64,000 bases of DNA from an uncultured bacterium (GCA_902779865.1 CACZDG010000003.1:3200-67199); one strand, 5' to 3'; positions 8,314 to 31,243 are shown, counted from the stretch's first letter. A program made the numbers and translations. Notes: generated by a model from the sequence alone, not told the origin.

Positions 8314-8339
8314 TGCGATTTTCCTTTACTGTTTTTCAT

Positions 8340-8386
8340 TGGAGCCGGCAGAGGGATTCGAACCCCCGACCAGCGGTTTACAAAAC
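8340..8386. repeat. att repeat, left copy (displaced 3' part of tRNA-Thr)
   Basis: TGGAGCCGGCAGAGGGATTCGAACCCCCGACCAGCGGTTTACAAAAC is identical to 57677-57723. Confidence 0.95.
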
Positions 8387-8584
8387 ATGCCATGGACGTG
8401 AAACTTGAAACACGTTGAACACGTGGAGCAAAATCTCGCGTTATATGAACACTTCGCACACATAGAGCACGGTTTGTCAGCACCCGTGTCAGCACGCGCC
8501 AACTACTAGGGGCTGTTCGCAGGGCATTGTACCACGCCGGAAAACCTACCGAAAAACTTTTTTTAACTTTTTTTCGGTAGGTGC

Positions 8585-8613
8585 TTGCATATGCTAGGAG
8601 TTTGTGGTATCAT
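8585..8613 (+). promoter_or_regulatory. early rightward promoter TTGCAT-17-TGgTATCAT
   Basis: -35 at 8585-8590, extended -10 at 8605-8613, about 30 nt upstream of the first early gene (RBS AGGAGA). Confidence 0.55.
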
Positions 8614-8646
8614 GTTCGGCGTCACGGCAAAACAGGAGAGTTTCAA

Positions 8647-8919
8647 ATGGCTTCAAACAGAGACACCAACAAAAGGCTCAAGGGCATAGGACTGCCAATC
8701 GAGCTTTGCGTCAAGTACGAGAGGTTGTGCGGCATCCCGCCGGGAAGGAAACCGTCCTTCACCGAGAAGTTCCGCGTCTCGGAGGCGATGATTTCGGCGC
8801 TGGAGGCTGGCGTAAGGAACGTCCAGCTCACGTCGGAAGACTACGAACAAATAGCCAAAGAGGTAAAGAGAAATGAGAACAGCCGCAAAGGTAGGGGGAA
8901 CGCCGATGTCGAAGGCTAG
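8647..8919 (+). CDS. hypothetical early protein (possibly ribbon-helix-helix)
   Basis: ORF track, start moved to MASNRD (AGGAGA RBS). First gene after the early promoter. Confidence 0.5.
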   Translation: MASNRDTNKRLKGIGLPIELCVKYERLCGIPPGRKPSFTEKFRVSEAMISALEAGVRNVQLTSEDYEQIAKEVKRNENSRKGRGNADVEG

Positions 8920-9091
8920 CCCCATTTGCTTCAAGTACAGGGGGCGCGTCCTGGCTTTGAGCCCGGAGACATCGCTCAAGATCAGAAAGATCGCCGAGGA
9001 CGGAGGGAAGAGCGTGGACAGCGTTCTTTCCACCCTTCTCGAAAAGGCGCAATGCGTCGGTAACGGTCTTTTTTTGCCCGCTAGGTGCTAG
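8906..9091 (+). CDS. hypothetical early protein, RHH-like
   Basis: Beta-strand ICFKY followed by two helices (SLKIRKIAEDGG / SVDSVLSTLLEKA). Good G/C at third positions. Confidence 0.45.
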   Translation: MSKASPICFKYRGRVLALSPETSLKIRKIAEDGGKSVDSVLSTLLEKAQCVGNGLFLPARC

Positions 9092-9115
9092 CACTTGTTA
9101 GCGAGAAGGAGAGAA

Positions 9116-9331
9116 ATGAAGGAGAAAGCAAAAACGGCAGGGAAACGCGGCGCGGGCGGCGCGGCGGCGGCGCGGGTCGAGGGCGGCGCGAACAAGGTGT
9201 TCGTGGGCTTCTGGACCACGCCGACCATGAAGGCCGCGATCAACACCCGCGCGAAGATCGACCGCAAGAGCGCGTCCGCGCTCATTGACGAGATCATCAC
9301 GGACTGGCTGTGCGGGAGGAGGCGCAAGTGA
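9116..9331 (+). CDS. ribbon-helix-helix (CopG/Arc-like) DNA-binding protein
   Basis: KVFVGFWTTPTMKAAINTRAKIDRKSASALIDEIITDWL fits a strand-helix-helix pattern. AAGGAGAG RBS before MKEKAK. Confidence 0.55.
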   Translation: MKEKAKTAGKRGAGGAAAARVEGGANKVFVGFWTTPTMKAAINTRAKIDRKSASALIDEIITDWLCGRRRK

Positions 9332-9546
9332 CGTGCCAATACTACACCGACCGCGAGCTGGCCGAGCTTCTCGGCGTAAGCGTGAGCCTCGTCCGCAAGA
9401 TGGCGAAGGACGGCCCCTCGCGTCGCGGGCGCGGCGTCCTCGACATCCGGCTCATCCACCACTTCAAGGTGGGGGACATGCGCCGGTGGGACATGCAGGC
9501 GACCAAGAGCCTTTTGGGGATTGCGGATGCTCCGCAGCCCCGGTAA
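9328..9546 (+). CDS. excisionase-family HTH DNA-binding protein (Xis/AlpA-like)
   Basis: YYTDRELAELLGVSVSLVRKMAKDG...FKVGDMRRW. GTG start overlaps the upstream stop (GTGA) and follows GGGAGGAGG. Confidence 0.6.
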   Translation: MTCQYYTDRELAELLGVSVSLVRKMAKDGPSRRGRGVLDIRLIHHFKVGDMRRWDMQATKSLLGIADAPQPR

Positions 9547-19498: not shown

Positions 19499-19909
19499 GT
19501 GATGGAATCTACTTCAAGAGAGTCAAGGACGCCTGAACAGGTCGTTATCGTGCTTCCGCTTCCGCCGCGCGTGCTGTCGCCGAACTGTCCGGCGGGGACG
19601 CGCGGAGGGCGTTTCGCGCGCGCTGCGGCCGCGAAACGGTACAAACAACTCGCCGAGAGCGCAACGGTTGAGGCGGCCGCGGGCATGGCATGGGAGAAAT
19701 CGGCTGTCAAGGCGTTGTTCTACCACAAAACGGCGCGTAGGCGCGACGACGTGAACCACCTCGCCATGCTGAAACCCGCATACGACGGCGTCGTGCTGGC
19801 GGGATTGATACCCGACGACGACCGCGCCCACCTGCGGACGGAGGGCGCGGAGTTCTTCGTGGACAAAAAGAACCCGCGTGTAGAGCTGGTCTTCACGCGG
19901 GAGTGGTAG
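19499..19909 (+). CDS. rusA: RusA-family Holliday-junction resolvase
   Basis: LPLPPRVLSPN...RRRDDVNHLAMLKPAYDGVVLAGLIPDDD matches RusA catalytic Asp motifs. The start could be the ATG at 19502. Confidence 0.7.
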   Translation: MMESTSRESRTPEQVVIVLPLPPRVLSPNCPAGTRGGRFARAAAAKRYKQLAESATVEAAAGMAWEKSAVKALFYHKTARRRDDVNHLAMLKPAYDGVVLAGLIPDDDRAHLRTEGAEFFVDKKNPRVELVFTREW

Positions 19910-19927
19910 CGGCGGTTTTGGGATCCG

Positions 19928-20611
19928 TCACTCGTTGAGGCACAGCTTGCGCACGGTCTTCGCGTTCCACGCGCCGTGCCTGGCAAGATCGCGCCGGTTG
20001 GCGTTGAGCCACGTCATTATCGCATGGTAGGCCATGCCCTCGCGGTGCATGTGCCGTATTTCGTCGATCACGTCTCGCTCGCGCTGGCACGGGAGCATAC
20101 GCTTCGCGTCCGCCGGGTCCGGCATCCAGCCGTAGGGGCATTCGCTGCCCATGCGGCGGCCCTGCGACTGGTGGAAGCGCATCGCGTGGCGAGTGCGGGA
20201 CGCGATCATCTTGCGCTCGTACTCCGCGATCACCGACAGTATCTGCCGAATCATCACGGCCTCGTCCGAGTCGCCCTTCACGTCGCCCGTGACGGCCTCG
20301 ATGGACGCGCCGCGCTTCATCACGGCGCGGTTTATCTGCTCCGAGAGGTACACGTTGCGAGCGAGCCTGTCGCGCTTGTACACCAGGAGCACGCCGCCCT
20401 TCGGAAGCGCCTCGATGGCCTGCCACAGCTTCTCGCGGAACTCGTCGGCGCCGGACACGTCCGGGTCGTCGTAGCACGCTGCGACCTCCATGCCGTGTGC
20501 GGCCGCGTACTTCTCGCAGTAGTCGCGCTGCACCTCGCACGACTCGCACTTCTCCGCGTTCGCCCGTGGCGAGAACCGCGTGTATATGACTGCCTGTTTC
20601 AAAACTGCCAT
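19928..20611 (-). CDS. small serine recombinase (resolvase catalytic domain plus partial 'Recombinase' domain, no zinc-ribbon/coiled-coil)
   Basis: AVIYTRFSP...Q (catalytic Ser), VYKRDRLARN, IAEYERKMIASRTR, CPYGW. Start set at MAVLKQ. Confidence 0.8.
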   Translation of the reverse strand: MAVLKQAVIYTRFSPRANAEKCESCEVQRDYCEKYAAAHGMEVAACYDDPDVSGADEFREKLWQAIEALPKGGVLLVYKRDRLARNVYLSEQINRAVMKRGASIEAVTGDVKGDSDEAVMIRQILSVIAEYERKMIASRTRHAMRFHQSQGRRMGSECPYGWMPDPADAKRMLPCQRERDVIDEIRHMHREGMAYHAIMTWLNANRRDLARHGAWNAKTVRKLCLNE

Positions 20612-20865
20612 CCTTTCTGCTCCATCTGGCTTTGCCAATCGACCGTTAGTTTAGCAAAAATCACCGCGCCTGTCGCGTCCACGAGCATTCGCGGAGCGGA
20701 TTCCAGCCGCTCGTGGCGCACCGTGAACACGGCGACGGCCTCGCCGGACGGCGAGATCGCTGGCGTTGCGTCCTCGACGCGCCACGTCCCGACATGGCAG
20801 GGGATTCTCACCCCCGCCATGCCAAGGCGCAGCTGGACGCGGTTTCTGCGCGTTCCAGGCACCAT
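20599..20865 (-). CDS. hypothetical protein
   Basis: Start at MVPGTR after GGGAGG. Overlaps the recombinase start by 13 nt. Confidence 0.5.
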   Translation of the reverse strand: MVPGTRRNRVQLRLGMAGVRIPCHVGTWRVEDATPAISPSGEAVAVFTVRHERLESAPRMLVDATGAVIFAKLTVDWQSQMEQKGWQF

Positions 20866-21014
20866 CAGCGCACCTCCCTGACTTCCCAGTAGGTGTACGG
20901 GCCGAAGAAGCCCATGCGCCTGTAGCGCCACTTCACGTTAGCGAGGGCCTTCGCGGCGCTTTTCGCGACCGTGCGCTCCTCGCCCGCGTGGGTATAGACT
21001 ATGAACTCACGCAT
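20865..21014 (-). CDS. hypothetical 49-aa protein
   Basis: MREFIVY after GGAAGGAGG. ATGA-coupled downstream. Confidence 0.45.
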   Translation of the reverse strand: MREFIVYTHAGEERTVAKSAAKALANVKWRYRRMGFFGPYTYWEVREVR

Positions 21015-21135
21015 GGTCGGCCTCCTTCCCGTTCTTGTTCGCGCTGGACAGCGCAAGCCCGCTTCCGAGGCCCCGCTCGCGTATCAGCTTGCGCAGCTCG
21101 CTCGTGCCCATCTGCTCATAGTTGTCATTGTCCAT
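21007..21135 (-). CDS. hypothetical 42-aa protein
   Basis: Own translation MDNDNYEQMGTSELRKLIRERGLGSGLALSSANKNGKEADHA. AAGGAGA RBS. Confidence 0.4.
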   Translation of the reverse strand: MDNDNYEQMGTSELRKLIRERGLGSGLALSSANKNGKEADHA

Positions 21136-21214
21136 GACGGTCTCCTTGTGCTTTCACGTGATTGCATGGGTTAGCACCCCGCCCCGCAAACGGTACGGGG
21201 CAGGGCGCGTGTTT

Positions 21215-21400
21215 TCAGTCGGCGAACGCGAGGCGTCCGTCGCGCGCGAGCGTGACAAGCTCGTCGACCACGCGGGCCTCAAGCTCGATCACGACCTTCG
21301 CCTGCGCGTACTTGTCGGCTATCGGCCTGTCGCGCACTTCAGCCAGGAACGCCAGCGCGTTCATGGCCCTGCGGGGAAGCGTGTAGATGCGCTTACGCAT
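21215..21400 (-). CDS. hypothetical 61-aa protein
   Basis: MRKRIYTL after GAAAGGGGG. Overlaps the upstream gene by 8 nt. Confidence 0.45.
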   Translation of the reverse strand: MRKRIYTLPRRAMNALAFLAEVRDRPIADKYAQAKVVIELEARVVDELVTLARDGRLAFAD

Positions 21401-21650
21401 GGTACGCCCCCTTTCCGCATACCAGGCCGTCAGAATAGAAGCGCGTGCCGAAGGCGTCAAAATACCTGATGCCGTGCGCGTTGGTGTGGCAGCGGTAATT
21501 CAAATGGCGGACGCTGGGCTTGTTTCGTTTGGTCGTTGTATGGGTAATCTCTACGGCAACTGTGCGCGTAGCTGGATAGTAGCGCAGCACTTTCATCTGC
21601 GCCAGGCTTCCGTCGTGATACACGAATCGGAACTTCATCTTGTTGCTCAT
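21393..21650 (-). CDS. hypothetical 85-aa protein (first gene of the leftward operon)
   Basis: ORF track, GGAG RBS. Confidence 0.55.
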   Translation of the reverse strand: MSNKMKFRFVYHDGSLAQMKVLRYYPATRTVAVEITHTTTKRNKPSVRHLNYRCHTNAHGIRYFDAFGTRFYSDGLVCGKGAYHA

Positions 21651-21793
21651 GGGAACTACTCCATTTGCAAATTGGCCTCATGCGGTTAGTTCTGGCGGCA
21701 TAGCCGCACCCGCACGAGGCCAAAGGCTTGTTGTTCGCACACGCCCGATCACGGAACTACTCGCTCACGGCTCCTATTTGGAGGAACGCGAAT

Positions 21794-21823
21794 AGAATAG
21801 CACACCTAGCGCACCTAGCGCAA
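21794..21823 (-). promoter_or_regulatory. leftward promoter TTGCGC-18-TGcTATTCT with tandem CACCTAGCG repeats in the spacer
   Basis: -35 at 21818-21823, -10 at 21794-21799 (reverse-complement coordinates). 9-bp repeats at 21803-21811 and 21812-21820. Confidence 0.45.
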
Positions 21824-21888
21824 GCACTTTTTTCAGAAAAATTAAAATGGTTTTATAATCGCTCGTTTTGACGCGAAATCACACCTAT

Positions 21889-22227
21889 TTAGTCAAATAT
21901 AAAATCAAGCAACACGAGCATGGCCAGAAAGAAAACAATCGACGCCGCCCAGTTCAGCACGCGAACAGGCCATGATCGACTGCCGTATTCAAGCGGCATG
22001 GTAATGCGCGTGACTTCGAGCGCACGCAGCGCGATCCACGCGCACACCGTCATTGCCAGAACATACCTGGCACCGAACGCCGAGCCGGTTATCGCGCACG
22101 CTGCCAGCCTCGCCAGCGACACGAGCGCGAACGTGAGCGCGAACGACAGCGCCATGCGCACCGTCGCCACTATTGCCAGCATTGCCAGTCTTCTGCCCGT
22201 ACCAGTCGTTTTGCCTGTCGTGTCCAT
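21889..22227 (-). CDS. 112-aa polytopic membrane protein (3-4 TM), lysogen-expressed candidate
   Basis: Strongly hydrophobic helices. A promoter lies directly upstream. The antisense ORF 21920-22333 is Ser/Ala-rich, typical of a shadow frame. Confidence 0.6.
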   Translation of the reverse strand: MDTTGKTTGTGRRLAMLAIVATVRMALSFALTFALVSLARLAACAITGSAFGARYVLAMTVCAWIALRALEVTRITMPLEYGSRSWPVRVLNWAASIVFFLAMLVLLDFIFD

Positions 22228-23017: not shown

Positions 23018-23593
23018 GTGGCAAAAGTGAATCCAGAGGTCAAGACCCGGCTGCTGGCCGAGGGAACGTGGAACGATTTCTGCCTGTTCCGCGACAACGC
23101 GCAGAAGGAGGGCAACACCCCTGCTGCGGCGGAGAGGCTTGCCGTCGCCAAGTTCTGCCCGGATCTGGCAGGGCTTCCCCGCGTTTCCCACAAGAAGGGC
23201 GCGAACGGGAAGGCGAAGGAGGCCGTGTCGGTTCCGTCAACGTCGATTTCCGTCGCCGCGTCCGTTGCGAAGGGGTTGAAGGCCATGACGGGCGTGTCGC
23301 TTGCAGTGTTCGAGGGCAAGAAATGCACGATGGTGGAGGCGCTCGACTGGGTTATCGACGCGCTTGCGCTCGACCCGTCGCAGGTGAGGCCGGAGACGGC
23401 CCCGGCGGCGAAGGCGTGGAGCCTGTACCTGATGTGCAGGCGGAGTCCTGCGTTCGCGGAGGACGTGATCTCCAAGGCGGTGGTCCGCCAGATACCGAAC
23501 GGGACGCGGGACGAGGACTCCGGCGGCGAGAAGTTCGCCGGGGAGCGCGAGTACGACATGCTCGCGGCGATGCGGGAGGAGGGCGTGTCGTGA
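23018..23593 (+). CDS. hypothetical protein, candidate small terminase subunit (by position only)
   Basis: In frame with ORF 22859-23593, starting after the promoter (GTG 23018). Stop overlaps the terL start (GTGA). Confidence 0.4.
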   Translation: MAKVNPEVKTRLLAEGTWNDFCLFRDNAQKEGNTPAAAERLAVAKFCPDLAGLPRVSHKKGANGKAKEAVSVPSTSISVAASVAKGLKAMTGVSLAVFEGKKCTMVEALDWVIDALALDPSQVRPETAPAAKAWSLYLMCRRSPAFAEDVISKAVVRQIPNGTRDEDSGGEKFAGEREYDMLAAMREEGVS

Positions 23594-25470
23594 AGTTCGC
23601 GATGCCGAAGGACCCGGAGCTGAACGCGAGGGCGCGGATGCGGCTCCTGTGGGACGGCGGGCACGACCCGGCGGCGGCGGCGTACATGCGCGACCGCTGC
23701 GCGGACGACGTGATCTTCTGGGCGAACGCCTTCTGCTGGACCTACGACCCGCGCAAGACGGCGAGGCCGGACCTTCCCTTCGTGACGTACCCCTTCCAGG
23801 ACGAGGCGATCCTGAAGATACTCGACTGCGTGATGTCGCACCGCGACGTGGGCATCGAGAAGAGCCGCGACATGGGCGCGTCGTGGGTGAACCTGCTCGT
23901 GGTGACGTGGCTCTGGCAGTTCTGGAAGAATCGCATGTCCGCGCTTGTCATCAGCCGCAACGAGGACTACGTAGACAAGTCGGGGGACCCGAAGTCGCTC
24001 TTCTGGAAGATCGACTACCTCCAGCTGCACCAGCCGCGCTGGCTGCGTCCGCGCTCGACGGTGCGCACGTCCATGCACTTCGAGAACCGCGACACCGGGA
24101 GCGTGATCGACGGCGAATCGACGACGGGCGAGGTGGGACGCGGCGACCGCCGGACGTTGATACTCATGGACGAGTACGCGGCGTTCGAGGTGTCTGCGGG
24201 CTACAAGGCGAACACCTCGACTCAGCACGCGACCGACAGCCGGATTTTCAACTCGACGCCGAGGGGCGTGGGAAACGCCTTCTACGACCTGATGCACAAC
24301 GGCGAGACCGAGATCGTGCGGATGCACTGGAGTCAGCACCCGGAAAAGTCGCGCGGGCTGTACAAGTCCGAGAACGGGAAGCTCGTTTTGCTCGATTCGT
24401 GGACGGGGACGGTGGAGGTGAAGGCGAAGGGCGAGCGCTCGCGGAGGACGGTGAAGTTCCCCGACGAGTACCCCTTCATCCTCGACGGCAAGCTGCGCTC
24501 GCCATGGTACGACCGCCAGTGCGCCCGCGCCACGTCGCCGCAGGAGATCGCGCAGGAGCTGGACATCGACTACCTCGGCTCCGGCTACCAGTTCTTCGAC
24601 GCGGCGGCGGTGGAGGCGTACGTGAAGGCGTGGTGCCGGGACGCGGAGCTTGTAGGGGACCTTGAGTACGACCTTACGACGGGCGAGCCGCTGCGCTTCC
24701 GCCCGAACCCGAAGGGGCGGCTCTCGCTCTGGCAGCCGCTCGGGCGGGACGGCACCTACGGCGAGGACAGGACTTTCGTCGTGGGCGTTGACGTGTCGGC
24801 GGGAACGGGCGCGTCCAACTCGGCGGCGGCGGTGTACGACGAGGCGACGCGGGAGAAGTGGGCGGAGTTCGCGGACCCCAACATGGAGCCGCGCGACTTC
24901 GCGGTGTACGTCCTCGCGCTCGCGCGGTTCTTCAACGGCGCGACGGTGGTGCCGGACGCGAGCGGCCCGACCGGGAAGCAGTTCCTCAAGCGCTTCACGC
25001 AGGACGGCGACCACCCGCCGCTCTACCGCCGCCTGAAGGACAAGAAGATCTCCGCCGACAGGGTTGACGAGTACGGCGTGTACCTGAACCCGGAGGCGAA
25101 GTCTTCGCTCCTGATCGAGTACCGCGACGCGGTGGGCGACGCGAAGATAGTGAACCGCTCGGCGCGCGCGATGGAGGAGTGCCTCCAGTTCGTGCGCTCC
25201 CCGCGCGGGGACATCGAGCACTCCGCCGCGCTCTCGTCGCAGGACCCGTCCGGCGCGAGGACGGCGCACGGCGACGTGGTGATCGCGGACGCGCTCGCCA
25301 ACCTCAAGCTCGGCGAGGTGGAGCTTCCGTCGGGCGGGCGCCCGCAGGAGGTGCCGCCGAACTCGGTGGCAGGCCGCATGGAGGCGGCGCGGCTCGCGAG
25401 AGCGGCGGCGGACGGCACGACGCTTTCACCCGCGTGGGACGCGGGGTTAGGGAAAGGATGGAAAACATGA
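23590..25470 (+). CDS. terL: terminase large subunit
   Basis: GIEKSRDMGASW (ATPase), LILMDEYA (Walker B). C-terminal nuclease-domain length fits. GTG start after GGAGGAGGG. The upstream 266 codons of ORF 22792 were judged non-coding. Confidence 0.85.
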   Translation: MKFAMPKDPELNARARMRLLWDGGHDPAAAAYMRDRCADDVIFWANAFCWTYDPRKTARPDLPFVTYPFQDEAILKILDCVMSHRDVGIEKSRDMGASWVNLLVVTWLWQFWKNRMSALVISRNEDYVDKSGDPKSLFWKIDYLQLHQPRWLRPRSTVRTSMHFENRDTGSVIDGESTTGEVGRGDRRTLILMDEYAAFEVSAGYKANTSTQHATDSRIFNSTPRGVGNAFYDLMHNGETEIVRMHWSQHPEKSRGLYKSENGKLVLLDSWTGTVEVKAKGERSRRTVKFPDEYPFILDGKLRSPWYDRQCARATSPQEIAQELDIDYLGSGYQFFDAAAVEAYVKAWCRDAELVGDLEYDLTTGEPLRFRPNPKGRLSLWQPLGRDGTYGEDRTFVVGVDVSAGTGASNSAAAVYDEATREKWAEFADPNMEPRDFAVYVLALARFFNGATVVPDASGPTGKQFLKRFTQDGDHPPLYRRLKDKKISADRVDEYGVYLNPEAKSSLLIEYRDAVGDAKIVNRSARAMEECLQFVRSPRGDIEHSAALSSQDPSGARTAHGDVVIADALANLKLGEVELPSGGRPQEVPPNSVAGRMEAARLARAAADGTTLSPAWDAGLGKGWKT

Positions 25471-27026
25471 AAGACAGAATACTGACGGCGATGCTGGTGC
25501 TGGGCGTGTTCGCCCTTATCGGCGCGGGTATGCGCGAGTATCTGATACACAACGGTAGGCTCACGAGCGACCTCAACGCGGACGGCCACTCGATAACCAA
25601 CCTCGCGGACGGCTTCTTCCCGACGAACGGCTTCTACACCAAGGCGGAGACCGACGCGAAGATCGTGGAGCTTGCGCCGCCTCCCGGCAACTACGGCGTC
25701 GTGAGCAACCGTGCGCTGCACGCGCTTTCGCGGGCCGAGGCAGAGGCGGGTTTCACGGAGTGGAGGCCGTATGAGGAAGAAGGCGAGCCTGCCGGGTACA
25801 AGCTCGTCAGCGTGACATACCAGGGCAATAACAGATGGCGCGTGGAGGTTCTGATAGACGGCGATACGGAACCGACTGTTTACACCGACTTCTCTCCAGA
25901 CGGAGAAAACGCCGTGGCGCTAACTTTCAACTCAGAACTCAACTCGCTTGTGCGCACACGGCTTCCAAAGATGAGCGACTTCAACGGCCTCGCGTCCGAG
26001 CTCTACGTGGACAACGCAATCGCAAACCTCGACATCCCGGACCCAGACCTCTCGGAGTACGCGAAGTCGTCCGAACTCTCGGAGTACGCGAAGCTCTACA
26101 CCGTCGCCGCGCTCGCCAACTTCGCGACTAACGCGGACGTGAAGGCAAGCACGGCTATAGCCTACTTGCAGGGCGACGACGCGAAGGTGGTGATAACGAA
26201 CTACGACTCGTCAGTGCAAATGCCGTCGATGAGCTTCCAGCAGCGCGTCGAGGAAGACGGATCCAACATCTGGAGAATCGTGTGGAACGAGCTGACGCGC
26301 TGGAACTGGCTCACGGGCACGTACCTTCCAGCGCACTACTACGGCAAGGGCGAAGTTGACGGGCTCCTCGACGGCAAGGCAGACCGCGCCTGGGGCTTCT
26401 ACGACAGCCACACCGGCGGCTGGGCGCCGGACGGCTACACGTGGATAAGCAGCCCGAAGATCGCCATCGCGGCGGGGCTCGCCTACCAGCGCACGGTCAC
26501 GAGCGGCGGCGCGATATGGGTGCTGGAGTCGAACGGGCTCGTGACCGAGACCGGCGGCACCGTGTCGAACGGCTTCTTCCGCATCAGCGACGACGAGAAC
26601 AACGCGCTGTTCGAGATCGTCAAGGGCAACAAGCGCACCGAGGGCGCGCAAGCCGAACAGCCCGCCATAACGAACGTGATGGGAATCGCGCACATGTACA
26701 TCAGGTACCGCGTCGCGAGCGACGAACACCCGACACTGGAAGTATGCGCCGACCTCTTGAACCCCGACTGGCACAAAGAGGACTCGGAAGACTGCGTGGC
26801 GAACGTTTCGTGGAGCGGAGCCTCAAGCAACTACGTCGCCGAGGTGTGGGCGAAGACGGCGCAGCCGCGCATGTTCGTGAAAGCGACGTACATGACAGGC
26901 GGCGAGACGTACATCAAGAACGCCGCGCCGATTTCCGTACAAGGCGGCATACTCTGCACCGACGGCATCCACAAGGCGAGGCCGGTGTACAACAACGGCA
27001 ACATCACGTGGGAGGTCGTGCGGTGA
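25467..27026 (+). CDS. tail-fibre-like protein with hydrophobic N-terminal anchor
   Basis: MKDRILTAMLVLGVFALIGAG, then the LNADGHSITNLADG motif common in fibre/needle proteins. ATGA-coupled to terL. Confidence 0.65.
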   Translation: MKDRILTAMLVLGVFALIGAGMREYLIHNGRLTSDLNADGHSITNLADGFFPTNGFYTKAETDAKIVELAPPPGNYGVVSNRALHALSRAEAEAGFTEWRPYEEEGEPAGYKLVSVTYQGNNRWRVEVLIDGDTEPTVYTDFSPDGENAVALTFNSELNSLVRTRLPKMSDFNGLASELYVDNAIANLDIPDPDLSEYAKSSELSEYAKLYTVAALANFATNADVKASTAIAYLQGDDAKVVITNYDSSVQMPSMSFQQRVEEDGSNIWRIVWNELTRWNWLTGTYLPAHYYGKGEVDGLLDGKADRAWGFYDSHTGGWAPDGYTWISSPKIAIAAGLAYQRTVTSGGAIWVLESNGLVTETGGTVSNGFFRISDDENNALFEIVKGNKRTEGAQAEQPAITNVMGIAHMYIRYRVASDEHPTLEVCADLLNPDWHKEDSEDCVANVSWSGASSNYVAEVWAKTAQPRMFVKATYMTGGETYIKNAAPISVQGGILCTDGIHKARPVYNNGNITWEVVR

Positions 27027-27667
27027 AGGAGCTGGTCGATCTCTTCCAGGCGTCCGTGATGGCGGTAGGATTGGCCGTGATCGCGCTGTTCGCGATGGGT
27101 TACGCGGCGTATGCGCTGCGCGGCGCGGCGGTGAGGCTCAAGAGGTGGCTCGGCATGTCGGCGATGGCCGCGCTCGTGGCGGTGTGCGCGGTGTGGTACG
27201 GCGGCGGCAAGGGCACGAGGACGGTCGGCTTCCCGCGCACGGACATGAGCGTCGCGTACCTCGTGGACGCCGGTTCCTACGTGACGAACGACATGGTGCA
27301 CGTGGCGTTCACGTCGTACCTGATCCCGCAGGACGCGCAGATATTCCTCGACTACTGGCCGGACGGCTCGACGAACGAGGAGGACATGGTGACGGCCTAC
27401 ACGGCGACGCTCGCGGAGTTCCCGAAGCCGCTCGACCTGCCGTTCGAGAACGCGATCTCGAACCGCTGGTTCTGCTACACCACGTGGACGCCCGGCCCCG
27501 CCGTCTACACGAACGGCGTCTGGCAGTCAACGTGGATGACCGACAGGCGCGAGAACCGCTTCATGATACCCATCAGGACGACAATCGAAGTTGACGGCGA
27601 GACGATAGCGCCGCCGTCGCCAAATCCCAGAAAGAAGGAGGACGAAGAAGATGAAGACGACGAGTAG
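27023..27667 (+). CDS. two-TM membrane protein with acidic C-terminal tail
   Basis: GTGA coupling after GGGAGG. TM helices VMAVGLAVIALFAMGYAAYAL and MAALVAVCAVWYG. Ends in ...KKEDEEDEDDE. Confidence 0.6.
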   Translation: MKELVDLFQASVMAVGLAVIALFAMGYAAYALRGAAVRLKRWLGMSAMAALVAVCAVWYGGGKGTRTVGFPRTDMSVAYLVDAGSYVTNDMVHVAFTSYLIPQDAQIFLDYWPDGSTNEEDMVTAYTATLAEFPKPLDLPFENAISNRWFCYTTWTPGPAVYTNGVWQSTWMTDRRENRFMIPIRTTIEVDGETIAPPSPNPRKKEDEEDEDDE

Positions 27668-28130
27668 GATTGTCGCATGCGCCATCGCGCTTGCGCCCAT
27701 GGCCGCGGTGCCGGACGACACTAACGGAGCGGACGTGGTGGTTGAGACGCTCTTCTCCGACGGATCCACGAACACGTGGACGCGCCCGGAACTCGTCGCC
27801 GCCTTGCAGCTCGTGAACCGCAAGTACCACCGCGACTGCAAGACGCCCAACGGGCGCAGGGCGTGGCACGGCGGCTTGAAGCTCCAGACGGTCGCGACGA
27901 ACGGCACGACGCTCGTCAAGACCGAGACGCACGAGGACGGAAAGACTTTTACGTTCACGGCACCCTACGTCCCTCCGGCGGTGGCGGTGTCGAACGCGAA
28001 CGCTCGGCTCAAGACGACGCTCACGAAGGGCGTCCCCAAGGCGCTTGCGGCGGCGAGGCTGCGCCGCCTTCAGGAGAAAACGACGACGAACACGGTTCCC
28101 GTGGTGGTCACTGCCGGAGGCGACAGATAA
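27651..28130 (+). CDS. secreted protein (signal peptide)
   Basis: MKTTSRIVACAIALAPMAAVP. Confidence 0.6.
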   Translation: MKTTSRIVACAIALAPMAAVPDDTNGADVVVETLFSDGSTNTWTRPELVAALQLVNRKYHRDCKTPNGRRAWHGGLKLQTVATNGTTLVKTETHEDGKTFTFTAPYVPPAVAVSNANARLKTTLTKGVPKALAAARLRRLQEKTTTNTVPVVVTAGGDR

Positions 28131-28409
28131 ATGGATCCACGCGAAAAACTGGAGGAGATGGCGCTTGCGCGGCTCGATTCGCCCGATCCGAGCAACCGCG
28201 ACCTTGCCGACGCGCTGAAGGTCATCATAAACCGTCTCTGGTCGAAGGACGACCTGCGCGATTTCGTGACGAAGGAGCATCAGGAGATGTGCGCGAACTG
28301 CACGAAGTCGAAGCCTGGCCTGTCGGCATGGGACAAGTGGCTGATGGGGCTTGTCGGCACTCTCGTCACGGCGCTCTGCGCGACACTTTACTACTTCACG
28401 AAAGGATGA
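28131..28409 (+). CDS. tail-anchored small membrane protein
   Basis: C-terminal TM WLMGLVGTLVTALCATLYYF. Confidence 0.6.
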   Translation: MDPREKLEEMALARLDSPDPSNRDLADALKVIINRLWSKDDLRDFVTKEHQEMCANCTKSKPGLSAWDKWLMGLVGTLVTALCATLYYFTKG

Positions 28410-28414
28410 AAAGG

Positions 28415-28867
28415 ATGGATGTCAAGACAATACAGGACCTCTACAAGAAGGCCGTCTTAGCCGAGCTCGACGGCGTGGAGTTCATTGCGGAATTCCCGGA
28501 CGAGGAGCTTGCGGACTCGTACAACGGGATCGGACCGGAGTTCCTGCCGCCGACCCTGCGCGAGAAAGTCACACAGCACCTCTCGCTGTTCGCGCCGGCC
28601 GCGCTCATACACGACCTGCGCAACGAATACTCGGACGGAACCCGCCGCTCGTTCAACTACGCGAACTACGAATTTCTGGCGAACTGCCGCAAGCTTGCGG
28701 CGCGGAAGTACGCCTGGTACAACCCGCGCCGGTATATCGCGTACCACGTCGCGAAGCTGCTCTACTGGTTTGTGTGCGGCGACTGCGGCTGGACGGCGTG
28801 GATCCAGGCGATGGAGCGCCACGAAAAGAAGGTTTCCGGCAATTCCGCCGGGGAAACAAAGGAGTAA
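28415..28867 (+). CDS. hypothetical protein (weak DUF1353-like pattern)
   Basis: Start at MDVKTI. ...GIGPEFLP...FAPAALIHD...R...ANYEF resembles the DUF1353 core. Low certainty. Confidence 0.55.
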   Translation: MDVKTIQDLYKKAVLAELDGVEFIAEFPDEELADSYNGIGPEFLPPTLREKVTQHLSLFAPAALIHDLRNEYSDGTRRSFNYANYEFLANCRKLAARKYAWYNPRRYIAYHVAKLLYWFVCGDCGWTAWIQAMERHEKKVSGNSAGETKE

Positions 28868-28869
28868 AA

Positions 28870-29445
28870 ATGAAAAAACTGATGATGATGACGCTGGTCG
28901 CGGGTGCGGCGGCGATGATGACTGGATGCGGAACGCCCGGAAAGGTGCGTGACATCGAGTTGAAAGGCATGTACGTCAACGGCTATTCGGAGCAGCTTGC
29001 GATCGGAACGGGCCGCATCACGTCCATCCCGGGCGAGCGGGAGGCGTTCGCGGCCCACTACCGCGAAGACACCGCCTGGCTCTCCCCCTCGACCAAGACG
29101 CACGAACTCGACCTGTTCATCGTAGGGACGAACTCGACCGGAAGCGCGTCGGATGTCGTGAAGACGATCTGCGAGGCATTCAAGGAGGTCGCGCCGGCTG
29201 TCGCAAAGATCAACGCCGAGGCGCCGAAGGGAATCACCGTCCTTGACGTGATAAAACCGACCGACGCCGCGCTTCTTGCAAAGGCCATAGGCCCGAAGGC
29301 GTACCAGATGTTCATTGACAAGGGCGGCGACACGGCGAAGGCAACGGTCAGCAAGCTGTCGGACGGCTCGACGCAAGTCTCCGACGGCACGACGTGCATC
29401 AGCTGCGACGCCGCCGGGAACTGCACCGACTGCACCGTCAAGTAG
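28870..29445 (+). CDS. lipoprotein with Cys-rich C-terminus
   Basis: MKKLMMMTLVAGAAAMMTGC lipobox. AAAGGAG RBS. ...CISCDAAGNCTDC. Confidence 0.65.
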   Translation: MKKLMMMTLVAGAAAMMTGCGTPGKVRDIELKGMYVNGYSEQLAIGTGRITSIPGEREAFAAHYREDTAWLSPSTKTHELDLFIVGTNSTGSASDVVKTICEAFKEVAPAVAKINAEAPKGITVLDVIKPTDAALLAKAIGPKAYQMFIDKGGDTAKATVSKLSDGSTQVSDGTTCISCDAAGNCTDCTVK

Positions 29446-29509
29446 GACCGGAGGCGGCGGCATGACGACCAACGACGAAAACAGGGAGACCCACGAAAAG
29501 TAAACTGAC

Positions 29510-31243
29510 ATGGACATAACGAAGTTACACGAGTCGATTGAATGGTCGGCGCAGATGCTTGAGAAGCCGCGACAGGAGCGCGTGGCGGCGATTCAGGACT
29601 TCTGCGGCTCGCACTACGTGAAGGACAGCGCGTGTCCGGCCACGCCGGTGAACCTCATCGAGCTCGCCGTCACGATCTACGTGCGGCTGCTCGCGGCGCG
29701 TTCGCCAAAGTGCCTCGTCAAGACGGACGTGCCGTCCCTCCGCCCGTTCGCCGCCGACATGGAGATCGCGCTCAACCAGATACCCGGCGAGATCGGCCTC
29801 TCCGCGACGCTGCGCCGCGCCGTCGTGGAGGCCATCTTCTCGATAGGCATCGTCAAGGTCGGCATCGGCGCGACGAACGAGAACGCGAAGATCGGCGACG
29901 AGCCTTTCGTCTCGATCGTCCAGCTCGACGACTACTTCTGCGACATGTCCGCCCGCTCGTGGGAGGAGGTCCAGTACGAGGGCAACGAGTACTGGATGGA
30001 CACCGAGCAGATACGCGACCTCTACGGCGTCACCCTCGACTCCGACGAGTATTCGGGCGAGTCGCAGGACGGACAGGTTCAGGCGCGCTCCCTCACGGTG
30101 CACGAGCACGGCAGCCCGCTCCACGAGCGCGTTCTGCTGCGCGACGTGTACCTTGTCCGCGAGGGCCGCATGGTCACTTACGCCGTCTCTTCGCAGCGCG
30201 TCCTCCGCGACGAGCCGTGGGACGGGCCGGAGGGTTCCCCGTACATCCGCCTGTGGTTCTCGGACGTGCCTGGCAATCTCATGCCGTTGCCGCCCGTGGC
30301 CGTGTGGAAGGACCTCCACGAGCTTGAGAACACGCTTTTCCGCAAGCTCGCGCGCCAGGCCGTCGCCAAGAAGACCGTCTCCGCGTTCCAGGGCGGCAAC
30401 GACGAGGACATCGCCCGGCTCAAGAAGGCGTCTGACGGCGAGGGCTTCCGCTACAACGGCGCGAAGCCGGAGCAGATCGCGCTCGGCGGCGTGGACGGCG
30501 GCAACCTCGCGTTCGCCTTGCAGGTGCGCGACATCCACTCCGCCCTCGCGGGGAACCTCGACTCGCTCGGCGGCCTTTCCCCGCAGGCCAACACGGCCAC
30601 GCAGGAGAAGCTCATCAGCGAGGCGTCGTCCGTGCGCATACGCGCCATGAGCGACGCGACAGTGGACTTCGCCAAGGCGATATTCAAGCGCCTCGCGTGG
30701 TACATGTGGACCGACCCCGTGCGCGAACGCACAATCGTGAAGAGCGCCTCGGCCTCCGTGCCGTCCCTCTCCGTCACGCGCCAGTGGACGCCCGAGACGC
30801 GCGACGGCGACTTCCTCGACTACAACCTTGATATCGACGTGTTCTCGATGCAGGACGACTCCCCTTCCACGCGCATGGAGAAGTTCCTCAACGTGTACGA
30901 GCGCGTCATTCTTCCGATGCTCCCGCAGCTGGAGGCGCAGGGCGCGTTCATCGACTTCCGCGCCGTCCTCGACTACGTGGCCCGCAACGCGAACCTCTCG
31001 GAGATTTCGGAGTTCGTGGTGTTCGCGGACGCGGCGGCCGACGAACGCCAGCCCGCAGGCGGAAGCCCGCAGCCGGAGTACGTATCGACCAAGGCCCCCG
31101 TCACGCGCCGCACCTACGAGCGCGTGAACCGTCCGGGCGCGACGCGGCAGGGACGCGACGCCGTGATAATGCAGCTTGCGATGGGCGGGAACCCGCAGCC
31201 TGCCGAACTTGCCAGCCTCTCGCCGGGAAGGAGCATGACCTGA
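29510..31243 (+). CDS. portal protein (by size, position and composition)
   Basis: 577 aa. First large gene of the head module, upstream of the scaffold and capsid genes. Confidence 0.6.
   Translation: MDITKLHESIEWSAQMLEKPRQERVAAIQDFCGSHYVKDSACPATPVNLIELAVTIYVRLLAARSPKCLVKTDVPSLRPFAADMEIALNQIPGEIGLSATLRRAVVEAIFSIGIVKVGIGATNENAKIGDEPFVSIVQLDDYFCDMSARSWEEVQYEGNEYWMDTEQIRDLYGVTLDSDEYSGESQDGQVQARSLTVHEHGSPLHERVLLRDVYLVREGRMVTYAVSSQRVLRDEPWDGPEGSPYIRLWFSDVPGNLMPLPPVAVWKDLHELENTLFRKLARQAVAKKTVSAFQGGNDEDIARLKKASDGEGFRYNGAKPEQIALGGVDGGNLAFALQVRDIHSALAGNLDSLGGLSPQANTATQEKLISEASSVRIRAMSDATVDFAKAIFKRLAWYMWTDPVRERTIVKSASASVPSLSVTRQWTPETRDGDFLDYNLDIDVFSMQDDSPSTRMEKFLNVYERVILPMLPQLEAQGAFIDFRAVLDYVARNANLSEISEFVVFADAAADERQPAGGSPQPEYVSTKAPVTRRTYERVNRPGATRQGRDAVIMQLAMGGNPQPAELASLSPGRSMT

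What the first reader, a model, noticed from the sequence alone, without database searches (positions are those of the whole stretch)
25467..29445. Six-gene block of membrane, secreted and lipoprotein genes inserted between terminase and portal; no canonical lysis cassette elsewhere
TerL and portal are normally adjacent. Here they are separated by 4 kb encoding six proteins. The first is a 519-aa fibre-like protein with an N-terminal TM anchor. The second is a 2-TM protein with a poly-acidic tail. The third is a signal-peptide protein and the fourth a tail-anchored 92-aa protein. The fifth is a possible DUF1353-like protein and the sixth a lipoprotein with a Cys-rich end. All six are translationally coupled or tightly spaced on the late strand. 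Every product except one is predicted to be envelope-targeted. I could not recognise an endolysin, holin or spanin anywhere in the prophage. This block may therefore be a non-canonical lysis or envelope-remodelling module adapted to an atypical (PVC-type?) cell envelope. Alternatively it could be a superinfection-exclusion or surface-display set.
Basis: partly seen in the sequence, partly recalled or inferred. Interest (0 to 1): 0.6.

Follow-up and report, generated by a model that had tools for sequence, protein, structure and literature searches.

The report
Phage envelope cassette with phospholipase-like enzyme
Six tightly packed genes wedged between a prophage's DNA-packaging and portal genes form a cassette shared by many phages of gut Kiritimatiellae and Lentisphaerae, and its last three genes (small membrane protein, phospholipase-A2-like enzyme, lipoprotein) most likely help burst the host in a phage with no recognisable wall-cutting enzyme.

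Summary
Six co-directional genes (25467-29445) lie between TerL and portal with gaps of -4, -4, -17, 0, -4 and +2 nt. Six of eight more distant TerL relatives have TerL next to portal, so the block is an insertion.

It is a conserved mobile cassette made of two units.
- **Trio g1-g3:** an exported fibre-like protein, a 2-TM protein and a secreted basic protein. Their function is unknown.
- **Triad g4-g6:** a tail-anchored membrane protein, a PLA2-fold enzyme and a lipoprotein with a Cys-rich tail.

g5 is a remote DUF1353/TtaP relative (hhalign 95%, E 2.7e-8; fold TM 0.65/0.73). It keeps the catalytic His-Asp, but the distal Asp is an invariant Asn.

In Mu-like relatives g5-g6 sit in the position where Mu has its lysis genes. 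In cultured phages DUF1353 genes lie next to endolysins.

No Pfam or PHROG lysis family was found in this prophage. Seven wall-hydrolase families gave no hit in eight near-complete g5-bearing phage genomes, although the host has PBP transpeptidase genes, so it most likely makes peptidoglycan.

Best reading (about 0.5): the triad is a lipid-targeting lysis module. The wall hydrolase is unrecognised or not needed.

The scan has noted both the triad and the trio before on other genomes. Everything here is computational.

The parts
23581..25470 (+). Large terminase (upstream flank; its stop overlaps the g1 start by 4 nt)
   Evidence: phrog_2 at 1.4e-18 and phrog_5989 at 1.4e-16. It is 57-87% identical to TerL of L001 and L009.
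25467..27026 (+). g1: 519-aa fibre-like protein with an N-terminal hydrophobic helix (signal anchor or signal peptide). The C-terminal ~300 aa are highly conserved.
   Evidence: Hydropathy. 448 homologues, none with a Pfam domain, conserved over residues ~200-519. 98 of 120 homologues have a signal-peptide-like N-terminus. The model is poor (pLDDT 61) with weak R-pyocin fibre matches.
27023..27667 (+). g2: 214-aa protein with two TM helices, a basic loop between them, a conserved ~150-aa C-terminal domain (predicted periplasmic) and an acidic tail
   Evidence: Always follows g1 in relatives. No Pfam, PHROG or PDB match.
27651..28130 (+). g3: 159-aa secreted basic protein with invariant motif NRKYHR...GR.AWHG
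   Evidence: Always follows g2. No Pfam, PHROG or PDB match.
28131..28409 (+). g4: 92-aa tail-anchored membrane protein (helical N-domain, TM at 71-89); holin/XhlA-like candidate
   Evidence: It is 86% identical in L078 and 82% in L085. Proteins in the same position of other cassettes weakly match hemolysin/XhlA and holin PHROGs (phrog_1193 at 2.9e-5, phrog_689 at 2.7e-3). The window's own g4 has no significant match.
28406..28867 (+). g5: 153-aa soluble PLA2-fold protein, a remote DUF1353/TtaP relative with motifs NGxG, HD, N87 and N93
   Evidence: Model pLDDT 92.9. Best viral fold match is a 'Phospholipase A2 domain protein', TM 0.65/0.73, prob 1.0. PDB gave fungal and actinobacterial PLA2 at weak E-values. 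hhalign against DUF1353 gave 95.2%, E 2.7e-8. The family has 718 clusters.
28870..29445 (+). g6: 191-aa lipoprotein (lipobox MTGC) with a Cys-rich C-terminal tail; the constant partner of g5
   Evidence: A lipoprotein gene follows g5 in 21 of 37 loci by a strict pattern, against 4 of 418 background windows. By family membership the figure is about 30 of 37.
29510..31243 (+). Portal protein (downstream flank)
   Evidence: phrog_156 at 0.0074. It is 30-83% identical to portals placed next to TerL in relatives.

Best explanation
The block is a conserved, horizontally mobile envelope cassette of phages that infect Kiritimatiellae and Lentisphaerae. It has two units.

**Triad g4-g5-g6: the phage's lysis/egress module, or at least its membrane-attacking part.**
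1. Late in infection the tail-anchored protein g4 permeabilises the inner membrane.
2. The signal-less phospholipase-A2-fold enzyme g5 then reaches the periplasmic membrane leaflets and cuts phospholipids.
3. The lipoprotein g6, presumably sorted to the outer membrane (its localisation was not tested), targets or assists this attack. In doing so it takes over the job that spanins do in ordinary Gram-negative phages.

**Trio g1-g2-g3: exported proteins of unknown role.** All three are sent to the envelope and act there. They may be the missing wall- or capsule-directed component.

**What is shown.**
- The gene structure and tight coupling.
- Conservation of the cassette across different phage backbones.
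- The PLA2 fold and the remote DUF1353 homology of g5.
- The constant g5-lipoprotein pairing.
- The lysis-type position in relatives.
- The absence of recognisable wall hydrolases.

**What is inferred.**
- Enzymatic activity of g5.
- Hole formation by g4.
- Outer-membrane location and role of g6.
- Any role for g1-g3.
For: 1. g5 has a PLA2 fold. The model has pLDDT 92.9. The top viral structural match is a 'Phospholipase A2 domain protein' with TMq 0.65 and TMt 0.73. Fungal and actinobacterial PLA2 are the only meaningful PDB hits.
2. A profile of 127 family members aligns to a DUF1353 profile at 95.2% probability and E 2.7e-8, with HD on HD. DUF1353 (TtaP) is an experimentally shown PLA2 without signal peptide or disulfides (PMC11525133).
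3. NGxG, H69 and D70 are conserved in 126-127 of 127 members.
4. In cassettes L079 and L061 (the latter from a genome of the host's own genus) a true Pfam DUF1353 protein sits in the g5 slot. It lies between a tail-anchored protein and a lipoprotein of the g6 kind.
5. In Mu-like relatives the order is XRE regulator, then g5, g6, an N-TM coiled-coil protein, TerS, TerL, Portal_Mu and Mu-like_Pro. That is the position where Mu has its lysis genes.
6. In cultured phages DUF1353 lies within about 1 kb of an annotated endolysin in 6 of 9 contexts examined: Bjorn, IME207, JD-Fnp3, phiPMW, SPLA3 and FNU1.
7. No lysis family is found anywhere in the prophage. Eight g5-bearing viral genomes that are at least 91% complete gave 0 hits to seven wall-hydrolase families.
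8. The g5-less relative G302 (95% complete) carries a Peptidase_C92 gene, a lipoprotein gene and TM-protein genes at the end of its late operon. The window phage has nothing at that place.
9. The block has no internal promoter or terminator and its genes overlap, so it is expressed with the late genes.
Against: - No wall hydrolase was found, yet the host has four PBP transpeptidase genes. A lipase alone is not known to lyse a walled cell.
- In cultured phages DUF1353 accompanies an endolysin rather than replacing it.
- The distal catalytic Asp of TtaP is an Asn in 123 of 127 family members, so activity may be altered or lost.
- The window's own g4 has no significant holin or XhlA match.
- g6 is much larger than known o-spanins, and the window has no i-spanin-like partner.
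- Two of the nine cultured-phage contexts place DUF1353 beside tail-fibre genes, and one places it among DNA-metabolism genes.
- The negative Pfam scans could simply reflect the divergence of PVC phage proteins.
- Nothing here is experimental.
Confidence: 0.5

Rival explanations
1. The cassette is a superinfection-exclusion, receptor-masking or surface-conversion moron. The lipoprotein and the exported proteins would modify or block envelope components so that related phages cannot adsorb or inject, as Llp, Cor and Sp do in other phages. In this reading g6 might inhibit the PLA2 of incoming phages.
For: - Five of the six products are envelope-targeted.
- The cassette is an insertion relative to the ancestral TerL-portal order.
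- It moves between unrelated backbones.
- Its parts are exchanged mosaically. Between the window and L009, g4-g6 are far more diverged than g2 and g3.
- g6 N-domains fall into several swapped subtypes, as expected for arms-race genes.
Against: - There is no promoter-like site, and the block is translationally coupled to TerL, so it is not obviously expressed in the lysogen.
- A phospholipase-type enzyme is a poor fit for a protective function.
- The Mu-like and cultured-phage contexts are lysis positions.
- g1 has no similarity to the phage's own 1385-aa fibre, so it is not a decoy of its own receptor-binding protein.
Confidence: 0.15
2. The genes are virion or assembly genes. g1 would be a true tail fibre, with g2 and g3 as assembly factors. 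g5 would be a tail-assembly chaperone, as databases label DUF1353, or a virion-carried lipase used at entry, like the parvovirus VP1u PLA2.
For: - g1 has tail-fibre sequence motifs and weak fold matches to R-pyocin fibres.
- In L078 and L079 the cassette follows tail genes.
- DUF1353 lies beside tail-fibre genes in phiPMW and in Francisella phage KIRK.
- Many GenBank records name DUF1353 'tail assembly chaperone'.
Against: - 98 of 120 g1 homologues have a Sec-type signal-peptide-like N-terminus. g3 has a signal peptide, g2 is a membrane protein and g6 a lipoprotein. Tailed-phage virions assemble in the cytoplasm.
- The conserved part of g1 is the C-terminus, not the virion-attachment end.
- The 'chaperone' label is an automatic name given even to genes that lie inside lysis cassettes.
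- The phage already has a 1385-aa fibre.
Confidence: 0.12
3. g5-g6 is a phospholipase toxin with a periplasmic lipoprotein immunity partner, like T6SS Tle-Tli pairs. It would serve competition, abortive infection or timing control rather than lysis proper.
For: - A lipase gene directly followed by a lipoprotein gene is the classic layout of lipase effector-immunity pairs (general knowledge of Tle/Tli).
- The pairing is very strong.
Against: - g5 has no export signal and no delivery-system genes nearby.
- g6 subtypes do not track the g5 tree. L020 and L024 are sister g5 sequences (support 98/96) yet carry different g6 types, which is unlike specific immunity pairs.
- The pair always sits inside phage late operons.
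Confidence: 0.06

Closest known systems
TtaP / DUF1353 (Pfam PF07087), the PLA2 of the Salmonella typhoid-toxin islet, and its prophage relatives (PMC11525133)
   Same: - Small size, no signal peptide and no disulfide cysteines.
- The same three-helix PLA2 core.
- A conserved His-Asp.
- Profile-profile homology.
- A bona fide DUF1353 replaces g5 in otherwise equivalent cassettes.
   Different: - g5 and its 718-cluster family do not reach the Pfam model.
- They carry NGxG in place of DGxS.
- They carry Asn in place of the distal catalytic Asp.
- The family is nearly confined to PVC hosts and absent from cultured phages.
Canonical Gram-negative lysis cassettes (holin, endolysin, Rz/Rz1 spanins), including those of cultured phages that also hold a DUF1353 gene (IME207, Bjorn, phiPMW, SPLA3, JD-Fnp3, FNU1)
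   Same: - A tight late-operon cluster of a small membrane protein, a soluble enzyme without signal peptide and a lipoprotein.
- The same genomic positions: before TerS, or at the end of the late operon.
   Different: - No peptidoglycan hydrolase is recognisable.
- The lipoprotein is about 170 aa when mature, not a short proline-rich o-spanin.
- The window has no N-anchored coiled-coil i-spanin.
- In the window the module lies between TerL and portal.
Putative patatin-based lytic cassette of Wolbachia phage WO (PMC9203015)
   Same: It is a proposed lysis module built on a phospholipase A2-type enzyme plus a small holin-like coiled-coil membrane protein, in phages without a canonical endolysin.
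   Different: - The enzyme fold is unrelated (patatin alpha/beta hydrolase versus the small helical PLA2).
- The WO host has no detectable peptidoglycan, whereas this host has PBP genes.
- WO has no lipoprotein partner.
- Both are hypotheses without experiment.
XhlA of Bacillus prophage PBSX and related 'hemolysin'/holin PHROGs
   Same: It has a tail-anchored architecture (helical N-domain, one C-terminal TM) and is encoded just upstream of the lytic enzyme. g4-position proteins of other cassettes match these families weakly.
   Different: The window's g4 has no significant match itself (E 0.16). The known family is from Gram-positive phages.
Tail-fibre plus assembly-factor cassettes (lambda stf-tfa, P2 H-G, R-pyocin fibre-chaperone), compared with the g1-g3 trio
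   Same: It is a fibre-like protein followed by small partner genes that travel with it. g1 shows weak fold similarity to R-pyocin fibres.
   Different: - All three trio proteins carry export or membrane signals.
- The conserved end of g1 is the C-terminus.
- The partners resemble no known chaperone.

Membership tests
DUF1353 / TtaP-class PLA2 (g5) | Match to Pfam PF07087 above the curated cut-off | tested here: not met
   No hit for g5 or for 25 family members at E up to 10. The six-frame scan of the own genome found none.
DUF1353 / TtaP-class PLA2 (g5) | Detectable homology to the family by profile-profile comparison | tested here: met
   hhalign of a 127-sequence g5 profile against a 28-sequence DUF1353 profile gave probability 95.2%, E 2.7e-8 over 66 columns. 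With the shallower 25-sequence profile the probability was only 37.7%.
DUF1353 / TtaP-class PLA2 (g5) | Small helical PLA2 fold | tested here: met
   Model pLDDT 92.9. BFVD 'Phospholipase A2 domain protein' matched with TMq 0.65, TMt 0.73 and prob 1.0. 4aup and 8k1w are the PLA2 hits in PDB, at weak E-values.
DUF1353 / TtaP-class PLA2 (g5) | Catalytic His with adjacent Asp | tested here: met
   H69 in 126 of 127 members and D70 in 127 of 127. They align with the HD of DUF1353.
DUF1353 / TtaP-class PLA2 (g5) | Distal Asp of the His/Asp dyad (TtaP D85, required for activity) | tested here: not met
   The aligned residue is Asn87 in 123 of 127 members (Asp in 2). In the DUF1353 sample it is Asp in 23 of 28.
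DUF1353 / TtaP-class PLA2 (g5) | Phospholipase A2 activity | not testable with these tools
   Needs an enzyme assay.
Holin / XhlA-like membrane protein (g4) | Small protein with a TM helix, encoded next to the lytic enzyme | tested here: met
   92 aa with a TM at 71-89, overlapping the g5 start by 4 nt.
Holin / XhlA-like membrane protein (g4) | Sequence match to a holin or XhlA family | tested here: inconclusive
   For the window's g4 the best matches are DUF2951 and phrog_276 at E 0.16. Positional equivalents score better: phrog_1193 'hemolysin' at 2.9e-5, phrog_689 'holin' at 2.7e-3 and Pfam XhlA at 0.066.
Spanin (g6 as o-spanin) | Lipoprotein signal with lipobox Cys | tested here: met
   MMTGC at residues 16-20. 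All family members inspected have a lipobox-like Cys after a hydrophobic N-terminus.
Spanin (g6 as o-spanin) | Short (about 40-60 aa mature) proline-rich protein | tested here: not met
   The mature length is about 171 aa and the sequence is not proline-rich.
Spanin (g6 as o-spanin) | Adjacent i-spanin: N-terminal TM plus periplasmic coiled coil | tested here: not met
   There is none in the window. Mu-like relatives do have such a protein (F6) right after g6.
Canonical phage lysis cassette | A peptidoglycan hydrolase (endolysin) | tested here: not met
   No Pfam or PHROG lysis family in any prophage ORF. Six-frame scans of the window for Phage_lysozyme, Amidase_2, SLT, C92, M15_4 and M23 were negative.
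Tail fibre (g1) | Fibre fold or motifs | tested here: inconclusive
   Fibre-like motifs are present. The model has pLDDT 61 and the best PDB matches are R-pyocin fibres at E 2.6e-3 with TM about 0.1.
Tail fibre (g1) | Cytoplasmic protein without an export signal | tested here: not met
   A hydrophobic N-terminus is present in g1 and in 98 of 120 homologues, many of which by eye look like cleavable Sec signals.
Superinfection-exclusion lipoprotein (Llp/Cor type) | Expression in the lysogen from its own promoter | tested here: inconclusive
   No sigma-70-like site was found in the block, but the scan covers only one promoter type.

The most novel reading that the evidence does not exclude
Phages of Kiritimatiellae and Lentisphaerae may release their progeny with a lipid-targeting lysis system and no conventional endolysin. 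It would use a tail-anchored membrane protein, a distinct HD-N branch of PLA2-fold enzymes and an outer-membrane lipoprotein. In this reading the co-travelling exported trio (fibre-like g1, membrane-anchored g2, secreted g3) is a new kind of envelope-spanning or wall-directed apparatus that does the remaining work.
Probability: 0.15. Interest if true: 0.85.

Novelty: new variant of a known kind. Interest (0 to 1): 0.6.

Why it matters
Phage lysis of Gram-negative cells is understood as holin, endolysin and spanin. A widespread cassette that puts a phospholipase-A2-fold enzyme and a lipoprotein in that role would add a lipid-directed step, or a lipid-directed route, to that scheme. The cassette covers 718 sequence clusters for the enzyme alone, all from uncultured hosts.

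It would also give a biological role to the large DUF1353 family. Databases widely label that family 'tail assembly chaperone'. Its only studied member, TtaP, has a known activity but no known function.

The exported fibre-like trio is a separate puzzle, because tailed-phage fibres are not expected to leave the cytoplasm.

Both units can be tested in laboratory strains.

Tried and rejected
- **Family searches.** Pfam and PHROGs on all six proteins gave nothing significant. Pfam on 25 g5 homologues at E up to 10 gave no PLA2 or DUF1353 hit.
- **PDB by sequence profile.** Profiles for g5, g1, g3 and g2 gave nothing meaningful.
- **Cultured phages.** tblastn of g5 and g1 against 50,697 phage records found no match.
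- **PF09056 alignment.** A scan of 101 genomes of the phylum, meant to build a PLA2 alignment, gave one hit only.
- **g1 as a hidden exported wall hydrolase.** The model is of low confidence. It shows only fibre-like and Ig-like matches and no enzyme fold. The idea is neither supported nor excluded.
- **g1 as a decoy of the phage's own fibre.** There is no similarity to the 1385-aa fibre or to any other prophage protein. Rejected.
- **Strict co-evolution of g5 with g6 subtypes.** The tree is poorly resolved and has a clear exception. Not supported.
- **Limits reached.** Only two structure predictions and three fold searches were allowed, so g2, g3, g4 and g6 were not modelled.

Full report
**1. 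The observation**

The six ORFs are real and tightly packed on the + strand.
- g1 25467-27026 (519 aa)
- g2 27023-27667 (214 aa)
- g3 27651-28130 (159 aa)
- g4 28131-28409 (92 aa)
- g5 28406-28867 (153 aa)
- g6 28870-29445 (191 aa)

Successive gaps, starting from the TerL stop, are -4, -4, -17, 0, -4 and +2 nt. A further 64 nt separate g6 from the portal start.

A hydropathy and motif script gave these features.
- g1: an N-terminal hydrophobic helix.
- g2: two helices and a KKEDEEDEDDE tail.
- g3: a signal-peptide-like start.
- g4: a single C-terminal TM at 71-89.
- g5: no hydrophobic segment.
- g6: a lipobox (MMTGC) and a C-x2-C-x6-C-x2-C tail.

No + strand promoter-like or terminator-like site lies inside the block.

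TerL is secure (phrog_2 at 1.4e-18). Portal is weak by profile (phrog_156 at 0.0074), but it is homologous to the portals of relatives.

**2. The block is an insertion**

A TerL-based scan of viral contigs gave eight relatives. In six of them (L002, L003, L005-L008) the portal gene starts 45-558 bp after TerL.

Only the nearest lineage has genes between the two. That lineage is the window, the Lentisphaerae prophage L009/L030 (TerL 87%, portal 83%) and L001/G301 (TerL 57%).

**3. Host and the rest of the prophage**

Flanking genes are sugar-metabolism genes and a heparinase. Relatives of g5 in one-genome-per-species contigs come almost only from Kiritimatiellae, Lentisphaerae and Verrucomicrobia MAGs of gut and rumen.

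The prophage has the following.
- A replication module: AAA_24, PDDEXK, helicase, Prim-Pol, RusA.
- An SU10-type adaptor.
- A collagen-like 1385-aa fibre.
- A 2944-aa polyvalent protein.

No ORF matches a lysis family in Pfam or PHROGs. Six-frame scans of the whole genome place no Phage_lysozyme, Amidase_2, SLT, Peptidase_C92, M15_4 or M23 match in the window.

The host has four PBP transpeptidase genes, so it should make peptidoglycan.

**4. g5 is a PLA2-fold protein and a remote DUF1353 relative**

g5 has 252 close homologues without any Pfam domain. It has 718 clusters at E <= 0.001 among 1.8 billion representatives. None is in cultured phages.

*Fold evidence.*
- The AlphaFold model is confident: pLDDT 92.9, pTM 0.86, all-helical.
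- Against viral models the top hit is a Vibrio phage 'Phospholipase A2 domain protein' (TMq 0.65, TMt 0.73, prob 1.0, E 4.9e-3). A second phage PLA2 ranks fourth.
- Against PDB the only non-globin matches are Tuber borchii PLA2 (prob 0.99 over 73 columns) and Saccharothrix PLA2, at weak E-values.

*Homology evidence.*
- HMMER does not connect g5 to PF07087 or PF09056.
- I collected 28 DUF1353 proteins from genomes of the same phylum and ran hhalign against them.
- With the 25-sequence g5 alignment the probability was 37.7%.
- With 127 diverse members it was 95.2%, E 2.7e-8.
- AALIHD aligns on AAVVHD, AN-x-EF on AD-x-x-F, and G-W-x-A-W on the C-terminal G-x-x-W.

*Comparison with TtaP.* TtaP, a DUF1353 protein, has been shown to be a PLA2. 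Its catalytic residues are H70, D71 and D85, and it has no signal peptide and no disulfides (PMC11525133).

| Residue in g5 family | Count |
|---|---|
| N40 | 126 of 127 |
| G41 | 127 of 127 |
| G43 | 127 of 127 |
| H69 | 126 of 127 |
| D70 | 127 of 127 |
| N93 | 125 of 127 |
| N87 (aligned with TtaP D85) | Asn in 123 of 127 |

From my own knowledge, the D99N mutant of pancreatic PLA2 keeps part of its activity. An Asn therefore need not abolish catalysis, but this was not tested here.

**5. The six genes are a conserved cassette of two units**

The same order recurs on several different backbones.

| Locus | Backbone or origin | Cassette content |
|---|---|---|
| L078 | Phage with Terminase_6N, T7-type Head-tail_con and GP7 | g1 68%, g2 55%, g3 53%, g4 86%, g5 38%, g6 68% |
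| L079/L080 | Phage with lambda-type portal and ClpP protease; cassette lies next to the integrase | g1, g2, g3, an 87-aa tail-anchored protein, then a bona fide Pfam DUF1353 protein |
| G312 | Complete 34.8-kb genome with terminal repeats | g1 to g5 |
| L009, L025, L027; L010/L011 (g5 and g6 by similarity; upstream genes only alike in architecture) | Various | Same order |
| L061 | Genome of the host's own genus | A g3-like protein, a tail-anchored protein, a true DUF1353 and a g6-type lipoprotein |

The trio and the triad also occur apart.
- g5-g6 occur without g1-g3 in Mu-like phages and in G301.
- g1-g3 lie 7-9 kb from g5 in L032 and L013.

A lipoprotein gene follows g5 in 21 of 37 loci by a strict SPII pattern, against 4 of 418 background 1-kb windows. 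About 30 of 37 qualify when g6-family members with longer N-regions are counted.

g6 N-domains fall into at least five subtypes that share the Cys-rich tail. These subtypes do not strictly follow the g5 tree.

**6. Position and company point to lysis**

In some fifteen loci the order runs as follows.
- A divergent early operon.
- An XRE-type regulator.
- g5.
- g6.
- A 106-137-aa protein with an N-terminal TM and a coiled coil.
- An 85-aa protein.
- TerS, TerL, portal.

The head genes are Portal_Mu and Mu-like_Pro. This is the position where Mu has its lysis genes, before the head genes (my own knowledge of Mu). The host itself carries such a second prophage on contig C105.

Proteins in the g4 position of other cassettes weakly match XhlA-type 'hemolysin' and holin PHROGs (2.9e-5 and 2.7e-3) and Pfam XhlA (0.066). 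The window's own g4 does not match.

DUF1353 proteins occur in 248 cultured-phage records, often labelled 'tail assembly chaperone'. The nine contexts I examined are listed below.

| Phage | Context of the DUF1353 gene |
|---|---|
| Bjorn | lysozyme - DUF1353 - terminase |
| IME207 | endolysin - holin - Rz/Rz1 - DUF1353 |
| JD-Fnp3 | M15 peptidase, two small genes, DUF1353 |
| phiPMW | tail fibre - DUF1353 - endolysin |
| SPLA3 | endolysin - DUF1353 - endolysin |
| FNU1 | DUF1353 - one gene - amidase |
| Francisella phage KIRK | beside tail-fibre genes |
| Campylobacter F357 | among DNA-metabolism genes |
| CJIE4-4 | neighbours not annotated |

Six of the nine lie beside an annotated endolysin.

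**7. Wall hydrolases in g5-bearing phages**

I tested eight g5-bearing IMG/VR genomes that CheckV rates at least 91% complete: G301, G305, G306, G312, G313, G318, G319 and G321. None matches Peptidase_M15_3, Phage_lysozyme, Amidase_2, SLT, GH108, Peptidase_C92 or NLPC_P60. The GH108 control rang nowhere, so that scan is not informative.

G302 is 95% complete and a clear relative in its replication and head modules. It has no g5. At the end of its late operon, next to its integrase, it carries four genes.
- A Peptidase_C92 gene (4.6e-6, 27.2 bits).
- A lipoprotein gene.
- Two membrane-protein genes.

The window phage has only reverse-strand accessory genes at that place.

This is a single contrast. 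The negatives may reflect sequence divergence, so they suggest replacement but do not show it.

**8. The trio g1-g3**

g1 has 448 homologues. Their C-terminal ~300 residues are 50-90% identical while their N-terminal parts vary, and none has a Pfam domain.

98 of 120 homologues begin with a hydrophobic, signal-peptide-like segment. Many of these have a basic start and an AxA-like end.

The g1 model is poor (pLDDT 61). Only the last ~130 residues form a confident beta-sandwich. The best PDB matches are R-pyocin fibres at E 2.6e-3 with very low TM.

In g2 the loop between the two helices is basic. By the positive-inside rule the conserved C-terminal domain should face the periplasm; this is an inference.

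g2 and g3 have invariant motifs but match nothing in Pfam, PHROGs or PDB.

g1 does not resemble the phage's own fibre. The function of the trio remains unknown.

**9. Reading**

The most economical account is that g4-g5-g6 is the membrane-attacking lysis module of these phages. The trio is an exported accessory unit.

I put about 0.5 on the triad acting in lysis or egress. Two points remain unresolved.
- Whether the triad replaces a wall hydrolase or works beside an unrecognised one.
- Whether the Asn variant is catalytically active.

The rival readings, with their weights, are listed in the Rival explanations section.
- Superinfection exclusion.
- A virion or assembly role.
- An effector-immunity pair.

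**10. Earlier notes of this scan**

After my own analysis I looked up earlier notes. Several describe the PLA2-like protein, lipoprotein and small-membrane-protein set in lysis positions of other phage genomes. One describes the exported trio between terL and the lysis genes of a rumen Kiritimatiellae phage.

They agree with what I found. I did not use them as evidence.

**11. Limits**

Noticed in passing
G000 contig C105 (locus L084) 7839-9402: The host genome carries a second, unrelated prophage with Mu-like gene order. It has its own g5 (48% identical), a g6-type lipoprotein and an N-anchored coiled-coil protein directly upstream of TerS and TerL.
   Followed up: partly
whole genome G000: Six-frame scans found no SLT (PF01464) and no Phage_lysozyme (PF00959) match anywhere in the 4.3-Mb host assembly (92% complete). 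Eight of 14 control genomes have SLT. Wall-turnover enzymes of this lineage may be unusual, which bears on how much weight negative endolysin searches deserve.
   Followed up: no
L009 and L030 (contig CAMKJU010000001.1, 29866-50264 and 80799-101197): The closest relative prophage, from a Lentisphaerae MAG, appears twice with identical match coordinates on one 124-kb contig. This is either a tandem or duplicated prophage or an assembly artefact.
   Followed up: no
GenBank phage records, e.g. L104 3986-4474 (Bjorn gp68), L105 3911-4252 (IME207 gp22), L109 2345-2986 (SPLA3): DUF1353 proteins are labelled 'tail assembly chaperone' although they sit inside annotated lysis cassettes next to endolysin, holin or spanin genes. 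The label looks like a propagated automatic name.
   Followed up: partly
G302 (L081/L082) 19785-22074, minus strand: The g5-less relative ends its late operon with four genes next to the integrase: a Peptidase_C92 (permuted papain-like amidase) gene, a 180-aa lipoprotein gene, a 270-aa two-TM protein gene and a 134-aa N-anchored protein gene. This is a likely lysis cluster of a different design.
   Followed up: partly
L079 12978-13790: The gene called as a 270-aa DUF1353 protein contains an internal lipoprotein-like start (…MIALVATLILDGC…) after the PLA2 domain. It is either a fusion of enzyme and lipoprotein or two genes merged by the gene caller.
   Followed up: no
G301 (L091 and L094; contig ends 3977-4390 and 54471-54812): This 54.8-kb viral contig (rated 100% complete) holds two g5 matches, one near each end. 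The second is followed by a g6-like gene and the portal gene, the same junction as in the window. I did not determine whether this is terminal redundancy or two paralogous modules.
   Followed up: no
window 29462-29503: A 13-codon ORF (MTTNDENRETHEK) fills most of the 64-nt gap between g6 and the portal gene. It is probably meaningless.
   Followed up: no
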